NCBI GenBank assembly: GCA_002633005.1
Contig: NMRA01000388.1
Span: 124,001 to 188,000 of the forward strand
DNA length: 64,000 nucleotides
From: Phoronis australis
Taxonomy: Eukaryota > Animalia > Phoronida
Reading direction: 5' to 3'
Numbering within the stretch: the first letter of the stretch is position 1; each line of letters opens with the position of its first letter. The notes beneath the pieces were generated by a model. It made no database searches. It saw only the letters and a program-made list of their open reading frames with translations, and was not told where the DNA came from. A program made the translations under genes and the position numbers. This document shows, piece after piece, positions 27,807 through 62,391 of this stretch.

Positions 27807-28787
27807 GAATATGCACATCCAGAGAAACCACAGGGAAGGGATGAGGAACTCATCTAAGCAAAAGACACGTCTATGATCATCAATTATTGCCCGAATTATT
27901 CTGACGACCCGTTTTAGAAGTTCCCTGAGTTCAGTAACGCCAGGACCTGACTAAAAAGCAAGACCTCGCTAACTTACGTCAGATAAGTCATGTATTTTGA
28001 AGGAGAACACGTGATTATGGTTAGATTTTAGCGAGGTTCAGAACAGTTCTCACAGGGGTTTGGCTATCAGAACACACGTCAATGGACTCGTCACCCTTTT
28101 TTCACTCTGTCAAAAACTGCATGCAACGAACGAAAAGTTTTGAGTCATTTCACATCACAAGCCCCACAAATGACCACAGAAACATTATTCTCTCTTGTAT
28201 TTGTGACCCTTTCACTCCTACTGAAAACCAACTAGACTGAAGAAAAAAGATGTAAAAACGCAAAATCAGCACTTTTCACCCCAAAACAATCACTTTCTTG
28301 CCGACGCTCGACTAAAGCCAACATTCGATTCCGAAAGCAAATTCCCTGTCAATTCCAAAAACGTGGTGCAAAAGTAGTGTCAACCAATTTTTTTTTTTTG
28401 CAAAATCTGTCTTGCTTGACGGAGTGCTACCTGAAATCGCGGCCAATTTCTCAGTCGCTACACAGCAATACACAATTGTAATGGGGGACCACCATCTTGA
28501 ACAAGAGTGCAGCTACAGCCGAGCAAGTGGTCTTTTTTCATTCTCAACATGTTCACAAATACAATCAAACTACATTCACTCGGCCTACATCCAATACCTA
28601 ACTCAAAATGCCCCCAAGCCTGGCCTACCCCTAGATTTTAATAGTTTGGGAGAGGAAATTGGCCGCGGCCGCAGCCTAACTGTTCATTACCACCTAACGT
28701 TAATGAACTCCACTCAGGTGTTTATTTAAAATATCCTCACCGGAAAGTCGAACATTTTACGTGTTATCAGGCAGTAAACATGATTAA

Positions 28788-30509
28788 AGGAGAATGCCAC
28801 CCGGTTTAATTAGTCTTTTTTACCGTCTTAATCGGTCTATATCCACATCGAGTCTTATACGGTCGACCTCACCTTGCCGAGAGGTGTCGCGTTAACCTGT
28901 GAGGAAGGTGAGAAATGACGCAACAACGTCAGTGGTTCGTCTGCAGAGTGAATGCCGCTATATTGCGGTGCATCGTTCCCGCTTATCCGAAATATGAAGC
29001 TGCGAAGAAAGCGGGTAAATCGTTTTTTTTTTTGACTTTCTCGAGAGTCCGAAATGCTTAGCAAGTGGCTCGCGGTAGTGAAGAACAACAAGTACGCTGT
29101 TAATAGCAAGTATGAGGCCGTGAAGCATCTCCGTGTCTGTGGCCGGCATTTCGTCGACAATGATTTTTCTGACGAATTCAGGCTTACCAAAGAACTACCC
29201 ATACGTTCCGTTGCCTATGCATGTTCACGGCGCCTCTCTAGTATTTCTTGATCTGTGTATTCCGGTTCGAACTGATAGCCTGTGAAACCTATACGATCCG
29301 ACCCGTGAAGTCTTTGTCGGATGAGCTCTTGACTATGTCGGCTTTGGCGCCGGGTAAGTTGTGATGTACATGTAGACGTTTACTGATTATTCTGCGTTCT
29401 GTTTCAAAAGGAATTATTCTCATCCTAACCAATGCTTACATAAAACTGAAACAAAGTCTTTCTCATTAGATACAATTTGTAATGCCTTTGCAGTATTCGT
29501 GAGTGCAAATGTTGAGAAGCCAGCAGTGAATAAACCACGGCGTTACCGGCATTTGATGCCGGCAATAAAGGTAATTGACCGGGCACCGAAAGTCGTGTGA
29601 ACGCATTCTAATTCAGTGTTTGCTGACAAAAAGCTGTTGTGAAACAATTATTACTCGATTTTATATGCTATGGTCATATGTTAGGGGAATCTTTATTTAG
29701 AAATACAACTGCATCATCCAAATCATTGTTACTGTTCAACCTTTGCCCTGACGGTCTGTGGAAGGGGAACCTAACTTCGCGGCCCCCGACAAGTAAGTAT
29801 ATTTTCAGTTTCGTGGCTAATTCACTTAGATAATTACGTGCACATTATTTCTTTGGCTCATTATTATAGTCTTTTCGTGACTGGAGGTTTAGTTTCCAAC
29901 TCAAGCTAGTTTATATTCGTGCCAGTCCCGGCGGCCGCGACGGGCCTGATCGGGTTCCAAACCAACGGCCGGGATAACGAGTCAGTCCGGTCGCCACGAG
30001 CCTGATCGGGTTCTGAGCCACTGGCCGGGATAACAAGCGTTTTATGTGTTTAGAACTCAAAAAATCACAAGCTTCAACAACATCGATCAATGTTCTCCTG
30101 TCTGTATTTCACGGATCGAAGATTACTTCGAATTTATCTCTGAACAGGCCCTAAACTCCTGCTACGGACCTTAGTAAATTGGCCTGCCGAACTTTGTAGG
30201 CTACGGTGAGTCCAAATACCAATAAATCCGTAACAGCGAAATAAAACAACACGTTTTTACAAGAATTCGGTGTATTTTTAAGGGTCTACATCGAAGTTTG
30301 GTGATTTATTGGTGTTAAACGTTGAATTCAAGCGATAAGTTGACACCACTAATCCCTGTTGTGAACTGCTGAAAAACTGCGTGTGAAACCAATGACGCCA
30401 TTGAATAATTTCAACACCTCCGCCTGTTGTCAGGTTTCAGGTAACGCAACCGAACTACTCGATCAAAATTGATACAAAATAGATTGTTTTTTTCGGGTGG
30501 CATTCTCCT
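28788..30509 (+). mobile_element. Kolobok-like non-autonomous element, copy 3
   Basis: TTAA-AGGAGAATGCCACCC ... GGGTGGCATTCTCCT-TTAA; THAP remnant MPLYCGA...KWLAVV...RVCGRHF around 28952-29250. Confidence 0.85.
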
Positions 30510-31080
30510 TTAAACAAATCAGAACGCCACTTGCCTGAAAGCTATACGTATATGTATTCAAGTACTTCCCGCAATGAAAGAATTATTTTATTATTTTGTG
30601 GTTTGTTTAAATATCCGCTCATTTTAATATTCATTTGCTCGTTTAATAGGTGATCAGCATGAAAGTAAATGATTATTCTGCTCGTGTAAGTGCAGAGTAT
30701 TACTGTTCCTGGGTTTTCTTCAATTTTATTACTCTGCGCGTGTATGCGCAGAGTACAGTTGTTTGCTGCTAAGGTCATATACCGTACTCGTCCGGGTTAC
30801 CGCCCAGGGCGCTTAAATTGGGAATCTAAAAAACAAGGGGTGGGTGATAAGCCGAACATGAGCGGTTAAAATCGAAATTTTTGAAAAGTCAGGAGTGGGT
30901 GTTTACTGCACGGAGGACCGATTTTACCCTCACGGAACTACATTGACGTCGGAGTAGCAGTTCAAATATACGTCGGCGGATTGAAGTAACGGACTTCCAC
31001 TCTCTGAAGTGGAAGAGCGCACACGACACAGTGGCGCCGTGAGCCCGAGCATGATTGAGTTTTTTACGTACCTCCGTCGG

Positions 31081-34000
31081 CAGGGCCGTAGGAAGCGGGG
31101 GGGCCGGGGGGGCCCGTGCCCCCCCCAAAAATTTTCAGCGTAGAAGCTTCTGCAACATTGTATTTTGATTTGAAGTACAGTTTTCTCAGACTTATAACGA
31201 AATTGAAGAATCTGACTTAGTTATCAGAAAAACACCATAAATACGTGTGGATCAGGCAGCTTTTATTTCGCCAAAGAATCGTTTCCCAAGACTGCAGAAC
31301 AAGACTTCAAGTTGATGTTTGGCGTCGTCGGCAAAGTGAAGACCTCACGTGTGTACGGTAAGTGTTACATTATATCTAGCAGTAGCGCGTGCAGTTCTAA
31401 GCTTGAACTTTGGTGTTCAGTGCATTATTCGAGATGTCGACCGCAATGGAGGTAATTGAGTTTTCTAACGTTGTGGAGTTGTTTTTACTGTTCATTGTGA
31501 TTGTCGTGTAGTATAATTGTTTAAGATATAATCTCAAAAACGCTGTTACAATTTTCCAAAATATCGTTTCGTTTTCGTTTTATGCAACTTTAAAACGTTT
31601 TCATAAAAATCTGAAGCACTAGTTTGATTAGCCCTCATGCAAAAGTCGAACATCTTAAGAAAAATTCTTAACCGCGTGTTCGAGAACAGTGTATCGGAAT
31701 TTGAAAGTTCGATGCAAATTCAATACATTTTTGAATTTGGAAAAAATTGGAACTCTTATTAGGTTCTACATAACTTTAAAAGCACAAAATGCAAAACTTA
31801 GATTATAAAAAATTGCGACAAGTTTCCGGTTTCCTAGCAGAAAACTAACCTGAAATTGTGCAAATAGTAATGTTAGGTTCGCGACGGCGGTTACATGTAT
31901 GTGGCTTGTCCCTTTGAAACAACTATCATCCCGTACTTTGTTCTGTGTATGAGCGCATTTTGGGCATTTGCCATGAAGTTGGGGACGTGAAATGGGAAAA
32001 AATCCATTGGCATTCACTAAAAGTGCCATTTCGGAAAGTCGAAATTATGTCTATAAACTCATTCCTGGAATAAGGCCCATTTACGAATTTCTTGTCATTA
32101 CACAGAATTTCAAAACCTATCTAAAGTATCGCATGGCCTTATTTTATAAAGGCAAGTAATCTCTTGATACAACCTTGCAGTTGCTTAATTTCTGTTTATA
32201 GGTGACGAATCCCTCCACGTGACATTAAGGCTGCTGACTGCAGCCGAGCTCTTCATTCACTCTGACTTTTATGCAAGGCACCCACACGTTATTGCTGCTA
32301 CTCAGAAAGAAAACTCTATATCTTCGGATTTTCAAACATTATTCACTGTGGTAATGTCTCAGGAGGACGGTCTTGGAGACACTGTAAACGATGATAATGA
32401 AGCAGCCATTGTAAGAGAGGCAAAGCATCTGTGCCACGATGGGAATTGGAGTGGTCTCATGGCTGTCATGGGTCTGTCGTCTGTATTGAAAATGCCAGTA
32501 ACAAGTGTATATCCCGACGTAGGAAAAAGTGTTCATTCCCTTCATGGGGAGATCTTACCACGTGTATTAGGAAAGGCTTCATGCAACAAATATGCGATTT
32601 TCTTGTGGTCTAGAGATGGAAATCTTGACAACCGACCCGGCGCGATTTTTGAACCAAATCATGTCGTAGCAGTTAGAATAAAAAACACACGCCCTGTACC
32701 TGAGTGTCAAATGAATAAAAAAAGATTTTGCGACGATTCCCAGGAATGTTCAAGAGCAAAGAAGCAGCACGCTTCCAGTCACCAAAGAAAAATAGGTGCC
32801 TTCTTTAAGGTAAAATCCCTACCTGTAACCAGTAACTCACTCACGCTCGAAACTCACTTAATAGGCGGCGCATCACGCACTAAACCTGGAGGTGCTTCAG
32901 CTTGGAATATAAAAAGTAACTCTGAAACGTCAAACACAGAACTATCGGACGTCCTGGAGTCCCACAGTAGCTGTCCTACGCAGTTAGCAAACAGCACTTC
33001 TGAAGAAGCCACATTGCACACAGAGCCACTTGTGGTGAACGCTGGGACTCACAAATCTGGTACTACGAATTTAGAACCATCGAGCCAGTCACAGGAGCTT
33101 TATTGTAGCTTTTCAGCACCAAGTGAAAACTCCCACACTCACCAAAACAGTTCTTCTCAGTCGGCTCACACCATGCAAGAAAAACGTGGTTTACACGACA
33201 TTCCCGAGCATCCACACAAACCTTCAAATCACGTCTTTCCAAAACGACCTTTTGGCAAGAAAAATCGTCAATTTCAAAAACAGTGGTTTATCTCATGGCC
33301 GTGGCTGCATTATATTGAGGGGGAAGATAAGGTGTTGTGTCACATATGTGCAAAAGCTTACCACATGGGTCTGCTGTCTTCAGCAAAACAAGAGCTATCA
33401 TTTGTTGTTACCGGTTATACCAACTGGAAAAAGGCTACTGACAAGACGTCTGGCTTTACGAAGCATGAGAAATCTGAGTGCCATAAAGAAGCAATGGAAC
33501 GCACACTGATAGTGAAGTTGTCTGTCAAAGATGTTGCGGAACAACTGTCAACAGCCCACGGAGAGCAAAAAGCGAAAAACCGCAGAATGTTCCTGAAAAT
33601 ATTAACAAACATACGTTTTTTGGCAAGACAAGGTATACCGTTTAGGGGTGACGGAGATGAACAAGATTCCAATTTTATTCAACTACTCCATCTAAAAGAA
33701 ACAGAGACAGATATTTTGAAATCATGGTTGTCGCAGAAAACAAATAAATATACGTCTCCAGATATTCAAAATGAAGCGATCAAACTGATGGCTTTAAAAG
33801 TTCTCCGAGAAATAGCGTCGTGCATTCGCGGCAGTCCTTATTTTAGTATACTGGCAGACGAAACTACTGACGTGTCTAATAGCGAACAACTCGTCGTTTG
33901 TATCCGATGGGTAGACGAATCATTACAACCCCATGAAGATTTCATCGGATTTCGCCGCTTGGAATTGATGGATGCCCAAACAATTACGTCACTTCTAAAA

Positions 34001-35731
34001 GACACACTGTTGCGGATGAACTTGTCTTTAAGCAGATGTCGTGGTCAATGCTATGATGGTTGCAGCACAATGAGTGGGTCCAAAAATGGAGTCGTTGTCA
34101 ACATTAAACAGGAAGAACATCGCGCCCTGTACACACATTGTTATGGCCACGCGTTGAATCTTGCCTGCTCAGATAGTATCAAACGATGCAAGCTGATGGC
34201 AGATGCTTTAGACACCACGTACGAAATTACCAAACTGATAAAAAAATCTCCCAAACGTGACGCACAGTTGAATAAAATACGAGATGCGTTGCTTGACGAC
34301 AGAGAAGTGGGTAATATTCGGCAACTGTGTCCAACGAGATGGACCGTGAAGGCTGACGCTCTGAATCGTGTGATAGGTAACTATGATTGTTTACAGGAAC
34401 TCTGGTCCTGGGGAGTCCAAAATTGCAATGATTCAGAAATGAAAGCGCGGATACGTGGAATTCAGTCTCACATGACACAGTTTAGTTTCTTTTACGGTTT
34501 AGTACTTTCAGAGCGCCTGTTGGTGCATGCTGACAATCTGAGTACAACTTTACAAAGCGTTCAGATGTCCGCGGCTGAGGCTCAAAAGATTGCCAAAATG
34601 ACCCTTACTACATTAGAACGGATGAGAAACGACAGAGAATTTAAAAACTTCTGGGATGAAGTCCTAGCTTGTGCAAAGGATCATCACGTCAAAGATCCTG
34701 GTCTCCCTAGACGCAATAGAAAACCCGCTAGATACGAAACAGGAAATGCGCCTCCGGAGTTTTCTTCGAGTCCAGAAGATTATTATAGAAGAATTTATTT
34801 TGAAGCTCTTGACAATATCATTGCATCAATACGGGACAGGTTTGATCAAGAAGATTACAAAATTTATATGCAGTGTGAGGAGCTGATACTCAAGGCGGCA
34901 AAAGGGGAAAACTTTGAAAATGAATACCAAGATGTTATCAGTTTTTATGAAGATGATTTTGATTCAACACTGCGCTGTCACCTGGCTACGTTTGGGGCCA
35001 ATTATGCACAGGATGGTAGTCAAGAGGTAACATTGTCTCGTGTTGTGGATCATTTGCAGAAATTATCAGCCGGTCAAAAACACTTGATCGAAAATGTAAT
35101 TAAACTAGCAAACTTGCTGTTAGTGATGCCTGCAACAAATGCCAGTAGCGAACGAGCATTTAGTGCTCTTAGGCGTGTTAAGTCATATTTACGTTCCACA
35201 ATGGGACAGGGGAGGTTGAACCATTTAATGTTGCTCCATGTTCACAAAGACATGTGCGATAAGCTAAATTTGGTGGATGTGGCAAACGATTTTGTACGAG
35301 GAAGTGAAATGCGAAAGGCACAACTCGGGGTTTTTACCACGTTAGACTTAGCTGCAGCCCGAGTTCCTGTGTGCAGCAGGGCAACGTCCACTGATTTATG
35401 TTGAAGAGTAAATAAAAACATTTATAATTATTTCACACCTTCATTCTTACTGTTCAGCAAGAGTAATCGTATGAGCGGCATGTATGTTGCTCCAAAAATT
35501 TCCAGTCAATCTTAACAAAAAATTAACTCTAAAAGTACAGCATCTGTTACACACCTTATTATTAGTAGACATATTTTTTCATATAATTCAAAACGTACCT
35601 AGTGGTTGCAGTAGTTCATTTTACAGCGTTGGTATATACACCCCAGTGCAACGCAGTGGTTTCGAAATTAGAAGTTACGTATCGACCAGGGTCGGTGCCC
35701 CCCCAATAATTTTTACCTTCCTACGGGCCTG
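31081..35731 (+). mobile_element. Full-length hAT DNA transposon with 5-bp TSD (hAT5-like)
   Basis: TIRs cagggccgtaggaag / cttcctacgggcctg (14/15 match); GTCGG duplicated at 31076-31080 and 35732-35736; contains an uninterrupted transposase ORF. Confidence 0.92.
32202..35404 (+). CDS. hAT transposase (ZMYM1/THAP12-like: ZnF-TTF, DUF4371, DDE, hATC) with N-terminal vertnin-like OTU-type region
   Basis: Motifs WFISWPWLHY..CHIC..HEKSECH, FSILADETTD, GQCYDG, HCYGH, LCPTRW and SSERAFSAL. The ORF track start is GTG; a tttatag acceptor at 32200-32201 implies an upstream exon (candidate ATGTCGACCGCAATGGAG|GTAATT near 31434-31451). Confidence 0.92.
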
Positions 35732-36524
35732 GTCGGTGGTCGTCATCTCTTAGAACTAAGGTATTCCTACAGGTAGGCGTGCGTTCAGTAGAGCAAGTTT
35801 CTTGAGAGAAAAGACAGATCAAGCAAAACTCCGCTAGTGCGCCACGTATTTATAATAATATAAGGGAAGCACCTGATTTTGTAGATTTGCTCCCAACTAG
35901 ACACTTTGGCAACCAAAACACGTCCTAATGATTGACAGGTCTCAGTTCTTTTAAGAACATAAAAATGCTTTGAACCTAGTTTGAAAATGAAACATTTTAT
36001 ATAAATTGTATTCTTCTTTCTGAGTTGAACACTCTTGTTCAAAGCACGCCTACTCAACAATCGGACGATACTATTATTAGGCAATAGGGGTGCTAGATGG
36101 GCTGAAAAAATAACGTAGCAAAACACATCATGTAAAAAGACATCAGGAAAATCAAGAGTTCAAAAAATAAGTTTTTGAGGACGTGGATGTGGATAGAATG
36201 TTCGACTTACGCTTAACGACAAGTTGATTTCTTGAGATGTTGCTGTTAGTTGGGCGCTTCCATTTTGGTTGGGCGCTTCCATTTTGGTGTCGGGAGTGAG
36301 TCATTTAAAACATGCATTTAACCAAGGCAGTGAACAGAAAGACAAGTTCCTTTGTCACAATGACTCGTGTCTGCTTGTATTGAAAACAATGCGTCCAAAA
36401 TTATGTCGGTGTGCTCGTGTTTTTTTCTTATTTCATTGCTCAGGGTGGTGATGTTTCGTGTAGTCACAGCACCCACGGGAAATCACAGAAAGGTAGGCCG
36501 CGGACTTGCAATTACTGTCAAGTA

Positions 36525-37114
36525 CTCGCTGGTTTCCTGCATGCCGCTAGGTGGAGCGGTAGCCGCGCCAGCACGCAGGTATCCCTTAATTTTCCTCGGG
36601 AAATTGTTTTACACCGGGGTTTCTGATTGGCTAGTCGAATTCTCAACAGGTAGCGCTTTACGCAAACAAACTGGCATGACTGATGGACTGAAATGTAAAT
36701 GTCATTGGTATGTTGGGCAGAGAAATCGGTGTTTAATATTTATGTTCAGGAAATTTGAATCCTAGAAATTGTGGTTGCGCCTTTTCGGAGTGCATCTTTC
36801 TACTGTCGATGACATTTGTTTACGATACTGTCCTGTATTCACACAGTATGAATAACACACCGTTAAATCGGCCAGGTATATGTTTATTGAAGATGTACGT
36901 GCCTCAAGCACGCGGCTGTTAAACATCACTGCAGAAACGAAATAGTTGATGCGACGCCACTTGCATGACAAGGGTAAAAATCGTTCACTGTCCGCCATTT
37001 TTTCACGGTGTTGTAAAGCTAACCAATGATTGCTCAGGTTACATCATCCAATGCTTAAGCGGGTGCCACTGCGTGATACCTGCGTGCTGGCTAGGCACGT
37101 AGGGGACCAGCGAG
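36525..37114. mobile_element. MITE with 10-bp TSD
   Basis: Termini ctcgctgg / ccagcgag; subterminal inverted repeat gccagcacgcaggtatc / gatacctgcgtgctggc; ctgtcaagta duplicated at 36515-36524 and 37115-37124. Confidence 0.8.
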
Positions 37115-38297
37115 CTGTCAAGTACCGCTTTGCTGGTTCTTTCCCGGCAATGAAATGCATTCGACAAACGCTGTCTCAGTGATCAGTAAATGCTGACACG
37201 AGTTCGGCGTGTGAGCCAAAGGATATAATTGTGTCTCCTTCAGTAAAGTGTATGAGAATACGCCCGTTGGGTACTTAACCGCTATAGTAAGGCAAGGTCC
37301 GGTTCCGCTAAAACTGTTTCATTGTCTGTGAAAGGTAAGCAAGTTACGCACGTTTTGGAATCTTAGTTTTGAGCGACGAAGGTTCACAGAAGCACAGACA
37401 CTTTAAGAAAGTCTCGATGATGAAAAATTGGGGGTGGGCGGTAAAGAGCACGGGCTGTTAAAAATGAAAAATTTAAAATTTCGGGGATGGGCAGTAAGCC
37501 GAGCATGGGCGGTAACCCGGACGAGTACGGTAATTTTCAACATGCTACTCTTTCTTCAGTTTTAAACGTTTCTTCTTCAAATTAGGTGCACAGATGTAAG
37601 TCAGAAAGGCAAATTAAAAAGTACTTTTCTAAGTAATCGGCTCATCCAATCAGGTCAAGCACACTACTCCACTAACCAATTGGGGCATCCAACCGGAACC
37701 AAAAGATCAAAGGTCATTTAGTGTAAACTAAGATTTTGAGCTAGACACTTCAAATTCATATACTTGTTTGCTACATGTAATTGAGTTCCAAATTTAATCA
37801 GGTCATATGATGCAACCATGGGTACGTCATTAGATGCATTTTTCTTCCGTTACTCATTTGTATCTCTTCAATTAGCTCCTGATAGCCAAAGATGATATTC
37901 AATGCTGGGTGTGAACTTCAAAAGTAAGCAATGCCTGGTAATTAATTGATGTACCCTCTGTTCATTCAACTTTCCTGCAGATCGGAGACACTCTCGAGTT
38001 CCCTAATGAAGATGAAAGTTCAATTAAGAGGTTCAAGGCGACTTTTTGCAGTTTTCATAGGTTTTCGGCAGTTCTCCATGGGAAAAATAATGACTGGGCA
38101 TTGGAAAGAAAATTGGTTAAAAGTATCGGCAGTAAAGGGCTCAGTTAGAAGTCTACAAATTTCAAACTGTCAAACTTCCTCTTTGTGAATGCCGGAAACT
38201 ACAGTCGGCTCATTCCCCAGCCCTTGAGTTTTAACGTTTTCAATTTTGAATAACCTTTCTGCTTGATCCCATGCTTTAGTTCTTTTTTCCTGACTGT

Positions 38298-38710
38298 GCT
38301 AACCTGGACAAATACAGTAATTGAATGTCAGTTGTTTTGTCCCGAGTGCTAATTTGGGCAAATACAATAATTAAATGTCAACATTTTGTCGTGGGTACTA
38401 ACCAGGACATATACAATAATTGAACCTCAATATATTTGTCCTGAGTACCACCTTGGACAAATCCAATAGTTGAAAGTCGATAATTTTCGTCTTGAATGCT
38501 AACTTGGACAAAGACAACAATTGAATGTTAATATTTTTGTCTTGATTGATAACCTGGAGAAATACAATAATTGAACTCGACAATTTTGTCCTGGGTGTTA
38601 ACCTGGAGAAATACAATAATTTTGTCAATAATTTTGTCTTCAGTGTTATTCTGTACCAATACAAGAATTGAATGTCAATAATTTTAGTCTTGAATATTAA
38701 CCTGCACTTT
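38298..38710. repeat. Degenerate ~50-bp tandem repeat, ~8 units
   Basis: Unit resembles gctaacctggacaaatacaataattgaatgtcaataattttgtcctgagt, recurring about every 50 nt. Confidence 0.8.
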
Positions 38711-39655: not shown

Positions 39656-39819
39656 ATAGATTATTACATGTTCTCAGTCGTTATCCCCCTTATCTAGAGC
39701 CCGAGTGGATTTTGGAGAATTATCGCCCGAGGGGCGTTAGCCCCGAGGGTGATAATTCTACAAAATCCACTCGGGCTCTAGATAACGGGGGACAACGACT
39801 TCGCCATGTAATAATCTAT
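39656..39819. repeat. 164-bp near-perfect palindrome (Crypton-like fold-back element)
   Basis: Arms atagattattacatg...ttatctagagcccgagtggatttt / aaaatccactcgggctctagataa...catgtaataatctat, centre ggggc-gtta-gcccc. Confidence 0.85.
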
Positions 39820-39928
39820 ACAGTATGTACATGTGTATGTATACACTTATGTTTTTGCCTAATATCGTGTTGAGCGTATAGAGCAATTTAGGGGAAAATT
39901 TGATGTCACGCTATACACATTTTTCACG

Positions 39929-40089
39929 CAGTCGCCATTTTGAAAGTGAGCCTCTTTTTAGGTTTTAAGAACAATGCATTCTGCGCTTAATCATAGCAAA
40001 AGCGTGATTTTTCCCGTGTCTCATATTTATGTCTCAAATGCATTGTTTTTTAAACCTAAAACGAGGCTCATTACCAAAATGGCGACTGC
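39929..40089. repeat. Fold-back MITE-like inverted repeat
   Basis: gcagtcgccattttg...aacaatgcatt / aatgcattgtt...caaaatggcgactgc. Confidence 0.7.
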
Positions 40090-40196
40090 TTGAATGAGGT
40101 CTATTATTTAACATTTAAGCAACAACAGAAATCAGTCGATTCTGAAATTAAGTAATTTGGTCTTTAAAATCAAAACTATATTCAAACTCTTGTAAA

Positions 40197-59000: not shown

Positions 59001-62000
59001 CTCCCATCTATTTATTATATCTCATTTTACTTGTTTCACAACGAAACTCTATGCGCCCAAATATCAAAATCAAAAACATTGCGCTCTATTGTTGACCTTA
59101 TGAAACGTAAACAATCTCCGTTTTGTTGCTGTGTTTACTTGGGCACACACGGTATCGTACAATATAAGAAGCACTCAGCCTCGTCTCCAAGCCTCAAGAT
59201 GGTGCTGATCAGTTAAGTCATTTGAGGCTTGGAAATAAAATGTGTGAATTTTTACGGAAATTGCAAGAATAGCTGGAGTAATTTCGAAATTTTCAGCAGT
59301 TTTATGTAGAATAAAAACTAACGGTATGTTGCAGCAATTTAGGTCTAAATTATTGCAAAAGTTGTGTATTTTGATTCGAAAACAGATTAATACTATTCAT
59401 AAAATTAATATGAATTGAAAATAATTACAACCTTTATTTAAGACAATAAATAAAACAATGCCTTCTGTCACATGAATGGCTGCAATGTGAAAATAATTAC
59501 AATCTGCCTTTGTTCAATGACGTCAAGGCATCGGTCAATCATTGCGCAGAAAGTAATTTCCCAAACCAAGCCTCAAATGGCTAAAGCGATTAGCGTCATC
59601 TTGAGGCTTGGAGAAGAAGTTGAAAAAGTCAAATCAGTGTCAATTGTGTGTAAACACAGAGCAAAGCCATCAATCGATGCTCATGAGATTTTTTTGTAAC
59701 AGATTGTGAAGTACTTTTTTGGAATATTGAAATGGTAACAAAATTGGCCTTTTTTGAAGAAATGGAATGCATAAAAATTCGCTTCTGAAAAGATTACAAG
59801 AAACTGAAGTCCTACAACCAACTGTAACTGTTAACAAAGGATGAAACATTTATATATCTTGCAGATTATGCATTTCAAATAAAATGCGTGTTGGAATGGT
59901 ATACAGTGTCTTTAGGTAACTCTTATTATGTATGACTTATCTGGAAACTGTATAGTGGAGTCTGTTTGTACTCTAATATACATGTACTAAGCAGGCGTTG
60001 TTTTATTTCAGGGATTGTGATCAAGGAGAACAGTAATGCTAATGCAATCTTTATAATAAAAAGACAAGCACCAGGTTCCGAAACGCTGGTGTAAGGGAGG
60101 GAAGGCGAAAAGCTGTGTGAAGCTGCCAGTCCACTAACAAGCCCGAGACAGTTTTGTAAAAAATAATTAGTTGCTTATTTTTTATTTATATAATTCATCA
60201 TTTTTGTAAGTATTTTACCTTAGCAGTTTCACAGTAATAAAAATATTAAAGAACGAGCCTTTTCTTCTTGTAAGTCAAAGCTGCACGTGCAATGGGATTA
60301 AAATGACCAACAAAGCGAACGTTGTAGGACTTAAAAACATGAAGCATTGAAAAAACTAACCTGATGTTTCGTTATACCCACAAACAGTAATATTCCTGCA
60401 TTGGGCCTGTAAAGGCAACATTAGTGGTTCAATATTGGCACTGTACTTGCCCACCACTGCACTTTCGCCCATGTAATTAGTATACTGGCTTAATGTGAGC
60501 CCACCAATGTCCCTGTGCAGGGCCAACATAGTCTGTCAATACTGGCCCTTTATAGGGCCGAAACCGGTTTTTGGTGTATTGGCCCAGTAATGACTTGGTA
60601 CTGGCCCTTTACTGGCCGATATCGCAATCTTATACTGGCTCAATACCCAGCAGGTGTGCAAAATGTTATTGGGACAGTACTGGCCTACAGCATTGGACCA
60701 ATACAGGCCAATACTGGCCAATACTGGCCTGTATTGGCCTGTATTGGCCTGTATTGGCCCAGTACCTGGGACGCTGCCAGAACATTCCTTAAACCAGTAC
60801 ATAATTGAAACCACATTCTAGTCCACAAAGTCGCAGTGCCTACTTTAAAACACAAAAATTGGCCAAAATCAGTTTCTAGGACAACAGGTAAGTTGTAACC
60901 TTCAATGTTTTCTGAAAACCGGGATGAGGTTACTTACCAGTATATAGTGTTAAGCAAGTCAATGACATCCATTGGATTCATCGTCGCCACCATTGAAGTG
61001 AAACCAACAATATCGCTGAAGTAAATAGTGCAATTTTCGTAGAATTCTGCGGTGACGTTTCTTTGAGCTTTTAAATCTTCAGCCACGGATTTTGGAAGCA
61101 TTTGATACAGAAGGCGCTCGGTACGTCTTTTCTCAGCGGACAGCTGTTGCGTTTTTGTGGTTACGTTTTCCGCATACTTTCCCATCTTGAACAGAATTTT
61201 TGAGATGGACTTCAAGTATAAAAACACCATAACTGTACAAGACATCACGACCATAGCCACGATGACCGTATACATGATTACCCCCGCGCTTGCGTCTTGC
61301 AGCGCTGTCTCAAGTTCATTCAAAACAGTATCAACCACTTGGGAACGTATCTTAGAAAGAGCTGTTATGTATCGTGTTGCCGTGTCGAACGCGTTGAGGC
61401 TGTTCTGGAAACGAGTCTCTAAAGACGTATTCAAACACAATGCTCTGTAAGTTTTAGATTGCATCAATTGTATAGCATGTGTCCATTCTTGTTCAAGGCC
61501 GGTATCCACAATCAGTTCTTGCAGTAATTTGGCCAGCTCCGGTCTGTAAGCTTGCGCTAAACGACGTAAGCTAGCAAACTCTCCCTGTAGTTTAGAAAAC
61601 CACAACAGTGTCTCCTCGTTTATACTGCATGTATAGAAAAATACTGACCCCAATGCCCGCTGTATACCTACGGCATCTGAGCCCCAAAGAAGGCAACAGT
61701 ATGAAACAAGCAAGGTCCAAAATGAACCGGCTTTCGGATGCTCGATTGGTATAGTCATAGTCAACAAGAGACCGTACGTAATGTTGCTGTAGAAATGAAT
61801 GTTATTGGTCACTGTGGCATTGCCGCTGTCAATAAAATGTCGATGGGTCTTCAATTCTTCTACCAAATGGACTATCGTCTTATCATAAATATGCAAATTC
61901 CATTGGCGCTCACTTCCAAACAGGTCATCTGTCGTCGCCCGTTGTTGTACCAAAGAGTCTAGTTTCGACAAATTGGCTTTCTTCAAGCTTAGAAACATGG

Positions 62001-62331
62001 CACTGAGTCCGCGTTCAATTTGAAGACTTGTCACCAATTTCCCTCTGTATATAAGTGTCGTCACTACCGCCTCGTTTTCTTTGACAAGTTCTTGGTGAAC
62101 CTGTGTTTGTGTGAGCGTGTGACTAGCTAACGCAACCAAAACTATGATAGGAAACGCAACCAGGATTACCATTTTACTCAACTGAAATACCCGATTTCGT
62201 TTAGTACTGGCATCCAAAATTTCCTTCAGTTCTCTTTTGTCCACGTCTGTACTATGCAGCGATTGGGTGCTGTAAATTCGTCCAGGTATTTTCAGTAGAC
62301 TAGAGGGCTTGGAAGTACTTGGGTTCTCCAT
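40483..62331 (-). CDS. NIT-domain transmembrane guanylyl cyclase (NIT-GC), complete 6-exon gene, 635 aa
   Basis: Exons 62331-60938, 49621-49527, 47820-47701, 44611-44513, 42061-41970 and 40590-40483. All introns are GT-AG and the phases join; the total is 1908 nt (636 codons including TGA). Architecture: TM1, NIT (LQIERGLS...GIQRALGS), TM2, signalling helix ([14 protein letters not shown]), class III cyclase ([39 protein letters not shown]). Confidence 0.93.
41970..42061 (-). CDS. NIT-GC exon 5 ([31 protein letters not shown])
   Basis: ttgcag acceptor, gtaagc donor; in phase with neighbouring exons. Confidence 0.93.
42340..43760 (+). mobile_element. Decayed Ty3/Gypsy LTR retrotransposon fragment
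   Basis: ORF 42561..42944 retains [24 protein letters not shown] (RT N-terminus); boundaries approximate. Confidence 0.6.
44513..44611 (-). CDS. NIT-GC exon 4 ([33 protein letters not shown])
   Basis: ttcag acceptor, gtgaat donor; guanylate cyclase signature. Confidence 0.95.
45173..46916. mobile_element. hAT-like non-autonomous element with ~6-bp TSD
   Basis: TIR catggatatac / gtatatccctg (10/11); flanks ggaagt / ggaagg; ctcgccc / gggcgag subterminal repeats. Confidence 0.65.
45363..46459. mobile_element. pogo/Tc2-like non-autonomous element
   Basis: ta-ccgtattcgccctaataagcgccca at the left end; tgggcgcttattaggacgaat at the right end (tip degenerate). Confidence 0.65.
47200..47430 (+). 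mobile_element. Penelope-like GIY-YIG fragment
   Basis: Translates [14 protein letters not shown]...[17 protein letters not shown]. Confidence 0.6.
47701..47820 (-). CDS. NIT-GC exon 3 ([15 protein letters not shown]...LRIRIGIHS)
   Basis: ggcag acceptor, gtttgt donor; cyclase motif RIGIHSG. Confidence 0.93.
48190..48760 (+). mobile_element. Penelope-like GIY-YIG fragment with hammerhead-like 3' end
   Basis: [27 protein letters not shown]; ttgatga...cgaaacgtc at ~48672-48703. Confidence 0.72.
49527..49621 (-). CDS. NIT-GC exon 2 ([31 protein letters not shown])
   Basis: ttccag acceptor, gtaagt donor, canonical cyclase motif; missed by the ORF track. Confidence 0.95.
49950..50062. repeat. 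(GT)n/(GCGT)n microsatellite
   Basis: Read directly from the sequence. Confidence 0.9.
50700..52300. mobile_element. Highly decayed Kolobok-like transposon remnants (boundaries approximate)
   Basis: Plus-strand fragments CKICGFHF (THAP-like, ~51583) and [11 protein letters not shown] (~51942); minus-strand fragments EDDIEPY and [16 protein letters not shown] resemble the Kolobok accessory protein. Termini not found. Confidence 0.4.
53226..53393. mobile_element. hAT-like MITE with 5-bp TSD GAACA
   Basis: cagtggcggattta ... ctggatccccctg; GAACA at 53221-53225 and 53394-53398. Confidence 0.7.
53593..53906. mobile_element. hAT-like MITE with 5-bp TSD ATTTT
   Basis: cagtggctgatcta ... aaatccgcctatg; ATTTT on both flanks. 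Confidence 0.6.
56021..58828 (-). mobile_element. Academ non-autonomous element in NIT-GC intron 1
   Basis: Perfect 16-bp TIR tagtcggtgggccaga, 3-bp TSD ACT; internal CXC-type remnant [28 protein letters not shown] (ORF 56754..57095). Confidence 0.85.
60560..60770. repeat. Inverted array of 10-bp units (ggccaatact / tgtattggcc)
   Basis: Tandem units switch orientation at ~60730; probably a CCCAG...CTGGG-type MITE. Confidence 0.65.
60938..62331 (-). CDS. NIT-GC exon 1: N-terminus, TM1, NIT domain, TM2, coiled coil, start of cyclase domain
   Basis: Provided ORF 60934..62361. First ATG at 62331 (MENPSTSK); donor TG|GTAAGT after 60938. Confidence 0.93.
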
Positions 62332-62391
62332 AGTTGATTGATTTGTGTCACCAGTTAACAATGGTCTGTAGATCTCTGGTTAACACGTTCC

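What the first reader, a model, noticed from the sequence alone, without database searches (positions are those of the whole stretch)
32202..35404. Intact hAT transposase fused in-frame to a vertnin-like OTU-type protease domain
Seen: the first ~160 aa of the ORF (GDESLHVTLRLLTAAELF..DFY...W..LMAVMGLSSVLKMPVTSVYP...IFLWSR...PNHVVAV) are not hAT. A ~170-aa Ser/Thr-rich linker joins them, without stops, to a complete ZnF-TTF/DDE transposase, and all of it lies inside the TIRs. Knowledge: this pattern resembles vertnin-like OTU-fold domains; OTU/Ulp1 protease cargo is known from Helitron, Ginger, Dada, MuDR and Zisupton elements, but I do not know it as a standard hAT feature. Inference: a transposon-borne deubiquitinase-like module that could stabilise the transposase or alter chromatin at target sites. 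The His motif (NHVV) is present, but I could not find the catalytic GxGNC motif in 31081-32200, so the domain may be catalytically dead or missing an exon.
Basis: partly seen in the sequence, partly recalled or inferred. Interest (0 to 1): 0.8.

Follow-up and report, generated by a model that had tools for sequence, protein, structure and literature searches.

The report
hAT transposase carrying headless deubiquitinase domain
This animal jumping gene encodes its cutting enzyme joined to two-thirds of a domain shaped like ubiquitin-removing enzymes and to a motif predicted to grip the DNA-copying clamp; the piece with the cutting cysteine is missing here, but complete versions occur in other marine animals and would likely shield the transposase from ubiquitin tagging.

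Summary
Observation confirmed. A 4651-bp hAT element (31081-35731; 15-bp TIRs, 14 of 15 matching; 5-bp target duplication, as in hAT5) holds one stop-free frame: OTU-fold domain (aa 1-160), canonical PIP-box motif (aa 195-202), Ser/Thr-rich linker, zinc finger and intact DDE transposase. It is transcribed on the + strand through the OTU part. The OTU domain is headless: relatives carry the catalytic Cys about 11 residues upstream, in two loci on a separate exon that splices at the same Gly codon, and no such exon lies anywhere in the window. This copy is therefore likely not a protease. The fusion is recurrent: 11 other hAT proteins carry the domain, six with both Cys and His (one is an oyster RefSeq protein cluster), as do piggyBac transposases. 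The family resembles A20/Cezanne/VCPIP1 and, by eye, vertnin. My paper searches found no OTU-hAT description, but Repbase Reports are not held, and OTU cargo is known from Ginger, Helitron and MULE. The scan noted vertnin-like OTU-MULE fusions before, on other DNA. Function (a PCNA-tethered deubiquitinase protecting the transposase) is inferred and untested. New variant of a known kind.

The parts
31076..31080 (.). left copy of 5-bp target-site duplication
   Evidence: two reads in run X12 from a related, unoccupied copy of the outer element fit a 5-bp and not an 8-bp duplication (table 5c)
31081..31095 (+). left terminal inverted repeat
   Evidence: 14 of 15 match to right TIR
31315..31357 (+). 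3' end of first exon: ATG plus 13 codons, in phase with the acceptor at 32202, followed by a GTAAGT donor at 31358; encodes no Cys motif
   Evidence: donor used by 25 reads in run X10, which go on into sequence absent from the window; no 31357-32202 joint reached the 3-read listing threshold
31358..32201 (+). intron-like region where relatives have the Cys-bearing exon; none is detectable; ends in a phase-1 acceptor
   Evidence: same intron position in L003 and L006; covered by unspliced RNA reads in most bins of 31600-32200
32202..32680 (+). C-terminal two-thirds of a vertnin/A20-type OTU domain (aa 1-160), His154 kept, Cys and its helix absent
32783..32806 (+). PIP-box (PCNA-binding consensus) motif QRKIGAFF, aa 195-202; binding untested
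   Evidence: consensus Q-x-x-L/I-x-x-F-F as given in PMC3971601
32693..33199 (+). Ser/Thr-rich linker, aa 165-333, not alignable to relatives apart from the PIP motif
33200..33520 (+). TTF-type zinc finger region (C380, C383, H422, H428 invariant in 7 aligned proteins); the label TTF is recalled
33285..33529 (+). cryptic 245-nt GT..AG intron removed in a few transcripts; shifts the frame
   Evidence: 2 reads in X10, 3 in X11
33521..35404 (+). hAT DDE transposase core and C-terminal dimerisation domain: D553 (33857), D619 (34055), C647xxH650, W714, E984 (35150); stop at 35402-35404
   Evidence: Pfam DUF4371 E 5e-22, Dimer_Tnp_hAT E 1.9e-9; Hermes E 0.003
35717..35731 (-). right terminal inverted repeat
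   Evidence: reads leave the window's sequence here into mixed flanks
35732..35736 (.). right copy of 5-bp target-site duplication
30780..37532 (.). outer non-coding element with perfect 27-bp TIRs (30780-30806, 37506-37532), 2097 bp without the insert, into which the hAT jumped; not part of the hAT
   Evidence: mixed flanks at 30780 in reads

Best explanation
This is a transcribed hAT element with a 5-bp target duplication whose transposase frame begins with the Cys-lacking two-thirds of an OTU domain and a PIP-box motif; it likely descends from elements in which the complete domain is predicted to be a deubiquitinase that would be carried to PCNA-loaded DNA and would strip ubiquitin from the transposase or nearby proteins. 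Shown: the anatomy, the OTU fold, the absence of the Cys exon from this window, transcription through the region, and complete Cys+His OTU-hAT fusions in other animals. Inferred: the Cys exon was lost recently in the subfamily to which this copy belongs; this copy's product is a working transposase with a dead protease remnant; the PIP motif binds PCNA; and in intact relatives the protease counters ubiquitin-dependent degradation or eviction of the transposase at replication or repair sites, where hAT excision breaks are mended. Confidence is about 0.9 for the anatomy, 0.8 for this copy being protease-dead, and 0.35 for the PCNA-tethered deubiquitinase role.
For: Fold: window domain model pLDDT 87; in the wide PDB comparison ranks 1-27 are all OTU-type entries by title, best OTUD3 Z 8.6, rmsd 2.9, 104 aligned. 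A complete relative (P0066) gives Foldseek E 2e-5 to Cezanne and VCPIP1 and Z 12.9, rmsd 3.1, 137 aligned to OTUD3; the family profile aligns its Cys with the GDG-C motif of OTUD1, VCPIP1, A20 and Cezanne and its His with the matching His of A20 and Cezanne. Cys present in 55 of 63 relatives that cover the position, 88 of 151 do not cover it; His in 127 of 152 rows. L003 and L006 have the Cys exon, a phase-1 intron in the same Gly codon, then the second exon. Fusion recurs: P0154, P0224, P0028, P0109, P0138, P0303-P0306, P0310, P0311; 19 of 32 relatives with 150 or more residues after the domain carry a hAT-type zinc finger. P0303, P0304 and P0310 have Cys, His and all three DDE residues; the P0303 cluster holds Crassostrea gigas XP_034322447.1, collinear with the window protein at 33% over 1072 columns. 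The OTU part is 46% identical to P0154's while the linker is unalignable. PIP motif: strict in 11 of 70 and loose in 24 of 70 relatives, against 0.13 (max 3) and 0.79 (max 5) in 500 shuffles. RNA: + strand depth of 9-30 (X10) and 5-27 (X11) in every bin from 32096 to 35461. Youth: one DNA contig covers 31676-32760 at depth 85.6 with 1 difference, beside diverged contigs at depth 4-5 (depth is not a copy number); right-end reads run into mixed flanks (agreement 0.45).
Against: No activity, substrate or PCNA binding was tested. The 31358 donor splices to an exon that is not in the window (25 reads), so a longer master copy with the Cys exon cannot be excluded; 13 loose-end rows and 105 were not shown, and the acceptor's partner was never seen. 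Variants in reads over aa 1-160 lean synonymous (10 of 17 rows, P 0.002-0.014; only 7 of 13 without CpG sites, P 0.015-0.07), which is hard to square with long neutral decay. The PIP motif is missing in 46 of 70 relatives, among them the two piggyBac fusions, and the 70 rows are related (P0015 and P0303 are near-identical). RNA run X12 shows almost no reads over the ORF. Foldseek gave no E below 0.001 for the window's own truncated model and Pfam OTU scored only E 0.09.
Confidence: 0.5

Rival explanations
1. The Cys-less remnant is itself kept by selection as a pseudo-deubiquitinase: it no longer cuts but binds ubiquitin or a partner, as is supposed for the inactive OTU proteins vertnin and OTULINL.
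For: Frame open and His kept; synonymous lean of read variants; the truncated domain is predicted to fold well (pLDDT 87); an in-phase ATG exon exists at 31315-31357; vertnin is described as an inactive OTU homologue (PMC10318531, passages).
Against: Losing the whole N-terminal third, with the central catalytic helix, is a larger change than vertnin's point substitutions; the 31357-32202 splice was not listed in any of 4 runs; the pLDDT rests on an alignment of complete relatives.
Confidence: 0.2
2. The active family still has the Cys exon; this copy, and perhaps most copies, are internal-deletion derivatives, and the master's first exon splices to a Cys exon that then joins 32202.
For: The 31358 donor splices to an unknown exon (25 reads in X10; a 255-nt X6 contig also leaves the stretch at 31358); depth rises across 32202 in X10 (9.6 to 14.6 to 21.8) and X11 (3 to 7.4); a diverged contig matches only from 32176 on; synonymous lean.
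Against: The high-depth DNA contig shows the window's structure over 31676-32200; no loose end at 32202 was among the rows shown (shown down to 9 reads in X10 and 7 in X11); the 30 letters seen of the unknown exon hold no Cys motif and could be a host exon beside another copy.
Confidence: 0.2
3. In intact relatives the domain is a self-processing protease that cuts the fusion to release or mature the transposase, rather than a deubiquitinase.
For: Papain-like and OTU-cluster viral enzymes process polyproteins (PMC10318531, passages); a long flexible linker follows the domain.
Against: Closest structures are chain-cleaving DUBs; the domain is also C-terminal in P0106 and repeated three times in a non-transposase protein, P0003; no conserved cleavage site stood out in the linker.
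Confidence: 0.07
4. The N-terminal segment is a chance or passenger capture of a host exon with no role in transposition.
For: OTU and transposase identities are uncorrelated among 11 fusions (Spearman 0.01, permutation p 0.47); most close transposases show no such domain (2 of 120 hit by HMM).
Against: Recurrence in deep hAT lineages and piggyBac with catalytic residues kept; OTU part conserved while the linker is not; the 120 proteins are mostly ORF calls that would miss upstream exons.
Confidence: 0.03

Closest known systems
hAT5 (hAT with 5-bp TSD; Kapitonov and Jurka, Repbase Reports 2007, as cited in PMC12730594; PMC9004415)
   Same: hAT transposase, short TIRs, 5-bp duplication; known from invertebrates and fish (passages)
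   Different: The passages read mention no protease domain; placement among Repbase hAT5 sequences was not tested
Ginger1 transposases with OTU or Ulp1 (PMC2836005), Helitron OTU/VTD (PMC9741609), MuDR-6_HM OTU (PMC6446971)
   Same: Ubiquitin-type protease carried by a DNA transposon, in Ginger1 fused in frame to the transposase; same proposed roles (passages)
   Different: Host element is hAT; the domain is N-terminal, of the vertnin/A20 type, followed by a PIP-box motif, and here lacks its Cys exon
Vertnin (VRTN) OTU-like domain
   Same: Same domain layout and motifs; by eye 19 of 57 identities in two ungapped blocks against pig vertnin (PMC3024977 supplement 9); both inactive
   Different: Vertnin keeps the whole domain but has lost Cys and His by substitution and continues into helix-turn-helix sequence; here His is kept, the Cys exon is gone and a hAT transposase follows
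A20/Cezanne/VCPIP1/TRABID-type OTU deubiquitinases
   Same: Best Foldseek and sequence-profile matches of the complete domain; Cys and His motifs align
   Different: 17-21% identity, transposon-borne, chain preference unknown; OTUD3 ranks first in the other structural comparison
'Zinc finger MYM-type protein 1-like' hAT proteins, e.g. Crassostrea gigas XP_034322447.1
   Same: Collinear over the whole length, 33% identity, OTU-PIP-linker-zinc finger-DDE
   Different: The oyster protein's cluster representative has the N-terminal 84 residues with the Cys; its automatic name hides both the transposase and the OTU domain

Membership tests
hAT superfamily | DDE triad with CxxH motif and conserved Trp | tested here: met
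   D553, D619, E984, C647/H650, W714; Hermes match E 0.003
hAT superfamily | C-terminal dimerisation domain PF05699 | tested here: met
   E 1.9e-9, above cut-off
hAT superfamily | short terminal inverted repeats | tested here: met
   15 bp, 14 matching
canonical hAT (8-bp TSD) | 8-bp target-site duplication | tested here: not met
   only a 5-bp match among lengths 2-10
hAT5 | 5-bp target-site duplication | tested here: met
   one insertion site plus 2 empty-site-like reads; other copies' sites not seen
hAT5 | transposase groups with Repbase hAT5 families | not testable with these tools
   no Repbase sequences on hand; the tree has no named references
OTU deubiquitinase | OTU fold | tested here: met
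   ESM Atlas neighbours carry PF02338 on 11-44% of members
OTU deubiquitinase | catalytic Cys | tested here: not met
   absent from the window; present in relatives
OTU deubiquitinase | catalytic His | tested here: met
   His154; family His aligns with A20 and Cezanne
OTU deubiquitinase | cleaves ubiquitin conjugates | not testable with these tools
   needs an assay
vertnin-like OTU subfamily | sequence similarity to the vertnin N-terminal domain | tested here: inconclusive
   by-eye match only, 19 of 57 in two ungapped blocks; no vertnin profile in the libraries scanned and no computed score
vertnin orthologue | OTU-like domain followed by helix-turn-helix region, no DDE transposase | tested here: not met
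   a hAT transposase follows instead
PIP-box PCNA ligand | Q-x-x-L/I-x-x-F-F consensus | tested here: met
   aa 195-202; consensus from PMC3971601
PIP-box PCNA ligand | binds PCNA | not testable with these tools
   no model or assay obtained

The most novel reading that the evidence does not exclude
Marine-invertebrate hAT transposases carry a swappable OTU-plus-PIP cassette, an active deubiquitinase tethered to PCNA that lets the transposase erase host ubiquitin signals at replication forks and excision breaks; the same mobile OTU family rides piggyBac and other elements and is the pool from which the vertebrate axial-patterning gene vertnin was domesticated as a pseudo-enzyme, a decay this copy is repeating by losing its Cys exon.
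Probability: 0.22. Interest if true: 0.8.

Novelty: new variant of a known kind. Interest (0 to 1): 0.5.

Why it matters
Ubiquitin-type proteases on DNA transposons have been noted since at least 2010, yet PMC9741609 (2022) states that transposon OTU domains had not been tested for activity. This family extends the pattern to hAT, gives intact Cys+His+DDE candidates (such as the oyster protein) for a direct test, and supplies a specific hypothesis through the adjacent PIP motif: deubiquitination at PCNA-loaded DNA. The window's copy, young and transcribed but without the Cys exon, is a natural loss-of-function comparison. The likeness to vertnin points to a transposon origin for that vertebrate gene's dead OTU domain. 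The copy itself is not a new enzyme.

Tried and rejected
No whole genome is held for the window, so other copies could not be read. Search for the Cys exon by three-frame reading, HMM and PSSM found nothing; look-alikes in 31081-32200 scored -13 bits or lower and were rejected. The exon that follows the 31358 donor is not in the window (0 matches at 3 mismatches). The second donor at 31452 has no in-phase ATG upstream. An 8-bp TSD was rejected. The look-up of sequencing runs listed no RNA holder; the RNA runs were added by species label. Relatives in viral contigs: none; the genome-contig scan did not run. No TIR/TSD pair was found around the domain in the 11 of 20 metagenome loci scanned for hAT-type ends nor a convincing one in the 10 scanned for inverted repeats, so the relatives' element ends are unverified. 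Foldseek on the truncated model gave no E below 0.001. Co-evolution of OTU and transposase was not shown; the OTU tree is largely unresolved (17 of 26 inner branches open), though P0001 and P0154 pair (98/91) and four hAT fusions share a clade in both trees. A PCNA-peptide model was not obtained, which says nothing about binding. Literature: no description of an OTU-hAT fusion in searches (searches returned 0 papers; most listed papers were seen as listings only); Repbase Reports and subscription journals are not in the library. PMC6004678 had no hAT5 passage; PMC5751038 and PMC6431247 mention OTU only as a known accessory domain (passages).
Full report
Observation. The window holds a stop-free frame at 32189-35404 (+), 1071 codons, entered by a phase-1 acceptor ending at 32201. 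Pfam finds DUF4371 (aa 400-630, E 5e-22) and the hAT dimerisation domain (E 1.9e-9); the first 180 residues give only a weak OTU hit (E 0.09). The DDE residues D553, D619 and E984, the C647xxH650 motif and W714 are present. The 333 codons ahead of the transposase core would be stop-free by chance with P about 5e-10, and aa 165-333 are 27% Ser+Thr. TIRs of 15 bp (14 matching) bound a 4651-bp element at 31081-35731. The flanks share 5 bp, not 8; two reads from an unoccupied relative of the surrounding element fit a 5-bp duplication. hAT families with 5-bp duplications are called hAT5 (PMC12730594 and PMC9004415, passages). The hAT sits inside a 2.1-kb non-coding element with perfect 27-bp TIRs.

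What the N-terminal domain is. Residues 1-170 have 506 relatives at E up to 0.001 among 1.84 billion representatives; the best 150 were listed. The model of the window's domain (pLDDT 87) gave no Foldseek match below E 0.001, though its top rows were OTU enzymes; in the wide comparison ranks 1-27 are OTU-type entries, best OTUD3 at Z 8.6, rmsd 2.9, 104 aligned. A complete relative (P0066, pLDDT 91.5) matches Cezanne, VCPIP1, A20 and TRABID at E 2e-5 to 3e-4 and OTUD3 at Z 12.9. The family profile aligns its Cys and His with the matching residues of those enzymes; that these are their catalytic residues is established knowledge. Read by eye against the vertnin alignment in supplement 9 of PMC3024977 (part 1 of 2 read), the window protein shares 19 of 57 residues with pig vertnin in two ungapped blocks, and vertnin has Leu at the family's Cys position and lacks the His; PMC10318531 lists vertnin as an inactive OTU homologue (passages). 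No computed score against vertnin was obtained.

The missing cysteine. Relatives have about 85 more residues in front, with a GxGxCL motif whose Cys lies 11 residues before the Gly at which the window's exon starts: 55 of 63 that cover the position have it, 88 of 151 do not cover it. In L003 and L006 this part is a separate exon ending inside that Gly codon, followed by a GT-AG intron; most of the other 14 loci with an upstream hit run through without an intron. The window has the same acceptor but no such exon: HMM best E 4.7, PSSM best 2.5 bits in the window and -13 in 31081-32200 against 39-59 for 5 held-out relatives. This copy cannot encode a working OTU protease from its own DNA.

Transcription and copies. 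In RNA runs X10 and X11 the element is read on the + strand at depth 9-30 and 5-27 in every bin from 32096 to 35461, with no break between the OTU part and the transposase; X12 shows almost nothing over the ORF (about 18-19% of each run read). The donor at 31358 is used by 25 reads in X10 but joins sequence absent from the window. An ATG at 31315 would be in frame with 32202, yet no such joint reached the listing threshold. Unspliced reads cover most of the intron-like region, depth rises across 32202, and no loose end at 32202 was among the rows shown, with 13 rows hidden. So the real first exon is unresolved. One DNA contig spans 31676-32760 at depth 85.6 with one difference, beside diverged contigs at depth 4-5, and right-end reads run into mixed flanks: this suggests a young multi-copy family sharing the window's structure there, though depth is no copy number. 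Variants over aa 1-160 lean synonymous, 10 of 17 rows (P 0.002-0.014), 7 of 13 without CpG sites (P 0.015-0.07).

Recurrence. Eleven other proteins join this domain to hAT transposase domains: P0154 and P0224 (2 of the 120 closest transposases by HMM), P0028, P0109, P0138 and P0303-P0306, P0310, P0311 (6 of the 11 long hits). Six show both Cys and His (P0138, P0303, P0304, P0305, P0310, P0311, the His of P0311 read by eye); P0303, P0304 and P0310 also keep D, D and E (P0305 not tested). The closest transposase, P0153 (61%), keeps a fragment of a His motif. P0001, P0153, P0154 and P0224 fall in one clade of 7 rows (support 99, FastTree, 52 rows), other fusions in deep branches. The P0303 cluster contains Crassostrea gigas XP_034322447.1, collinear with the window protein (33% of 1072 columns). 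The domain also occurs on piggyBac transposases (P0002, P0308, L003), a DUF7869 protein (P0042) and a mussel protein with three copies (P0003). OTU and transposase identities do not correlate among 11 fusions, which fits swapping or saturation.

A new detail. Just behind the domain lies QRKIGAFF (aa 195-202), an exact match to the PCNA-binding consensus Q-x-x-L/I-x-x-F-F (PMC3971601, passages). The strict motif occurs within 130 residues of the domain in 11 of 70 relatives and a loose form in 24 of 70, against 0.13 and 0.79 in shuffles; 0 of 13 OTU-less hAT N-terminal extensions matched, although P0193 has a near miss. The rows are related, so the counts overstate independence, and binding is untested.

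Mechanism. Most likely the ancestral protein is OTU-PIP-linker-zinc finger-DDE, with the PIP motif holding it at PCNA-loaded DNA and the protease removing ubiquitin from the transposase or local repair factors; protection from degradation and a role in repair are the ideas already offered for other transposon proteases (PMC2836005, PMC9741609, passages). The window's subfamily then lost the Cys exon but kept an intact transposase. Rivals are a retained pseudo-enzyme, a Cys-bearing master copy elsewhere, a self-processing protease and a passenger exon.

Novelty. Protease cargo is known from Ginger1, Helitron and MULE (the MULE paper was a lead from earlier scan notes). Nine searches showed no account of an OTU-hAT fusion or of a transposon origin for vertnin's OTU domain, but Repbase Reports and most subscription journals are not held, and the fusion is visible in public Pfam annotation. 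Verdict: real, a new variant of a known kind, catalytically dead in this copy; interest 0.5.

Noticed in passing
window 30780-37532: Non-coding element of about 2.1 kb with perfect 27-bp TIRs that hosts the hAT; reads show many other copies.
   Followed up: partly
window 60937-62379 (-): 481-codon frame with NIT, HNOBA and the start of a guanylate cyclase domain; likely a host gene exon.
   Followed up: partly
window 39685-39790 and 39913-40104: A 51-bp hairpin (90% complementary, 4-nt loop) and a 68-bp inverted repeat, MITE-like.
   Followed up: no
window 38297-38707: Degenerate direct repeats with a period of about 99-100 bp.
   Followed up: no
window 28781-28821 and 30476-30516; 29932-30037: A 41-bp inverted repeat pair 1.65 kb apart enclosing a 50-bp direct repeat; possibly another small element.
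   Followed up: no
window 31552-31591 and 31632-31672: Short stretches inside the hAT's intron-like region shared with other repeats in the genome (loose ends on both sides).
   Followed up: no
window 35368-35731: Run X12 holds many reads that match only the right end of the element, some with a 31-nt skip at 35601-35633: probably a transcribed non-autonomous derivative.
   Followed up: no
protein P0109: OTU-hAT fusion whose first two DDE positions read Q and P, with a second near-identical member on a long contig; possibly domesticated.
   Followed up: no
protein P0106: 1520-aa hAT-like protein with the OTU domain (Cys and His present) at the C-terminus instead.
   Followed up: no
L003:901-4389: Two-exon OTU (Cys present) fused to a piggyBac-type transposase.
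   Followed up: partly
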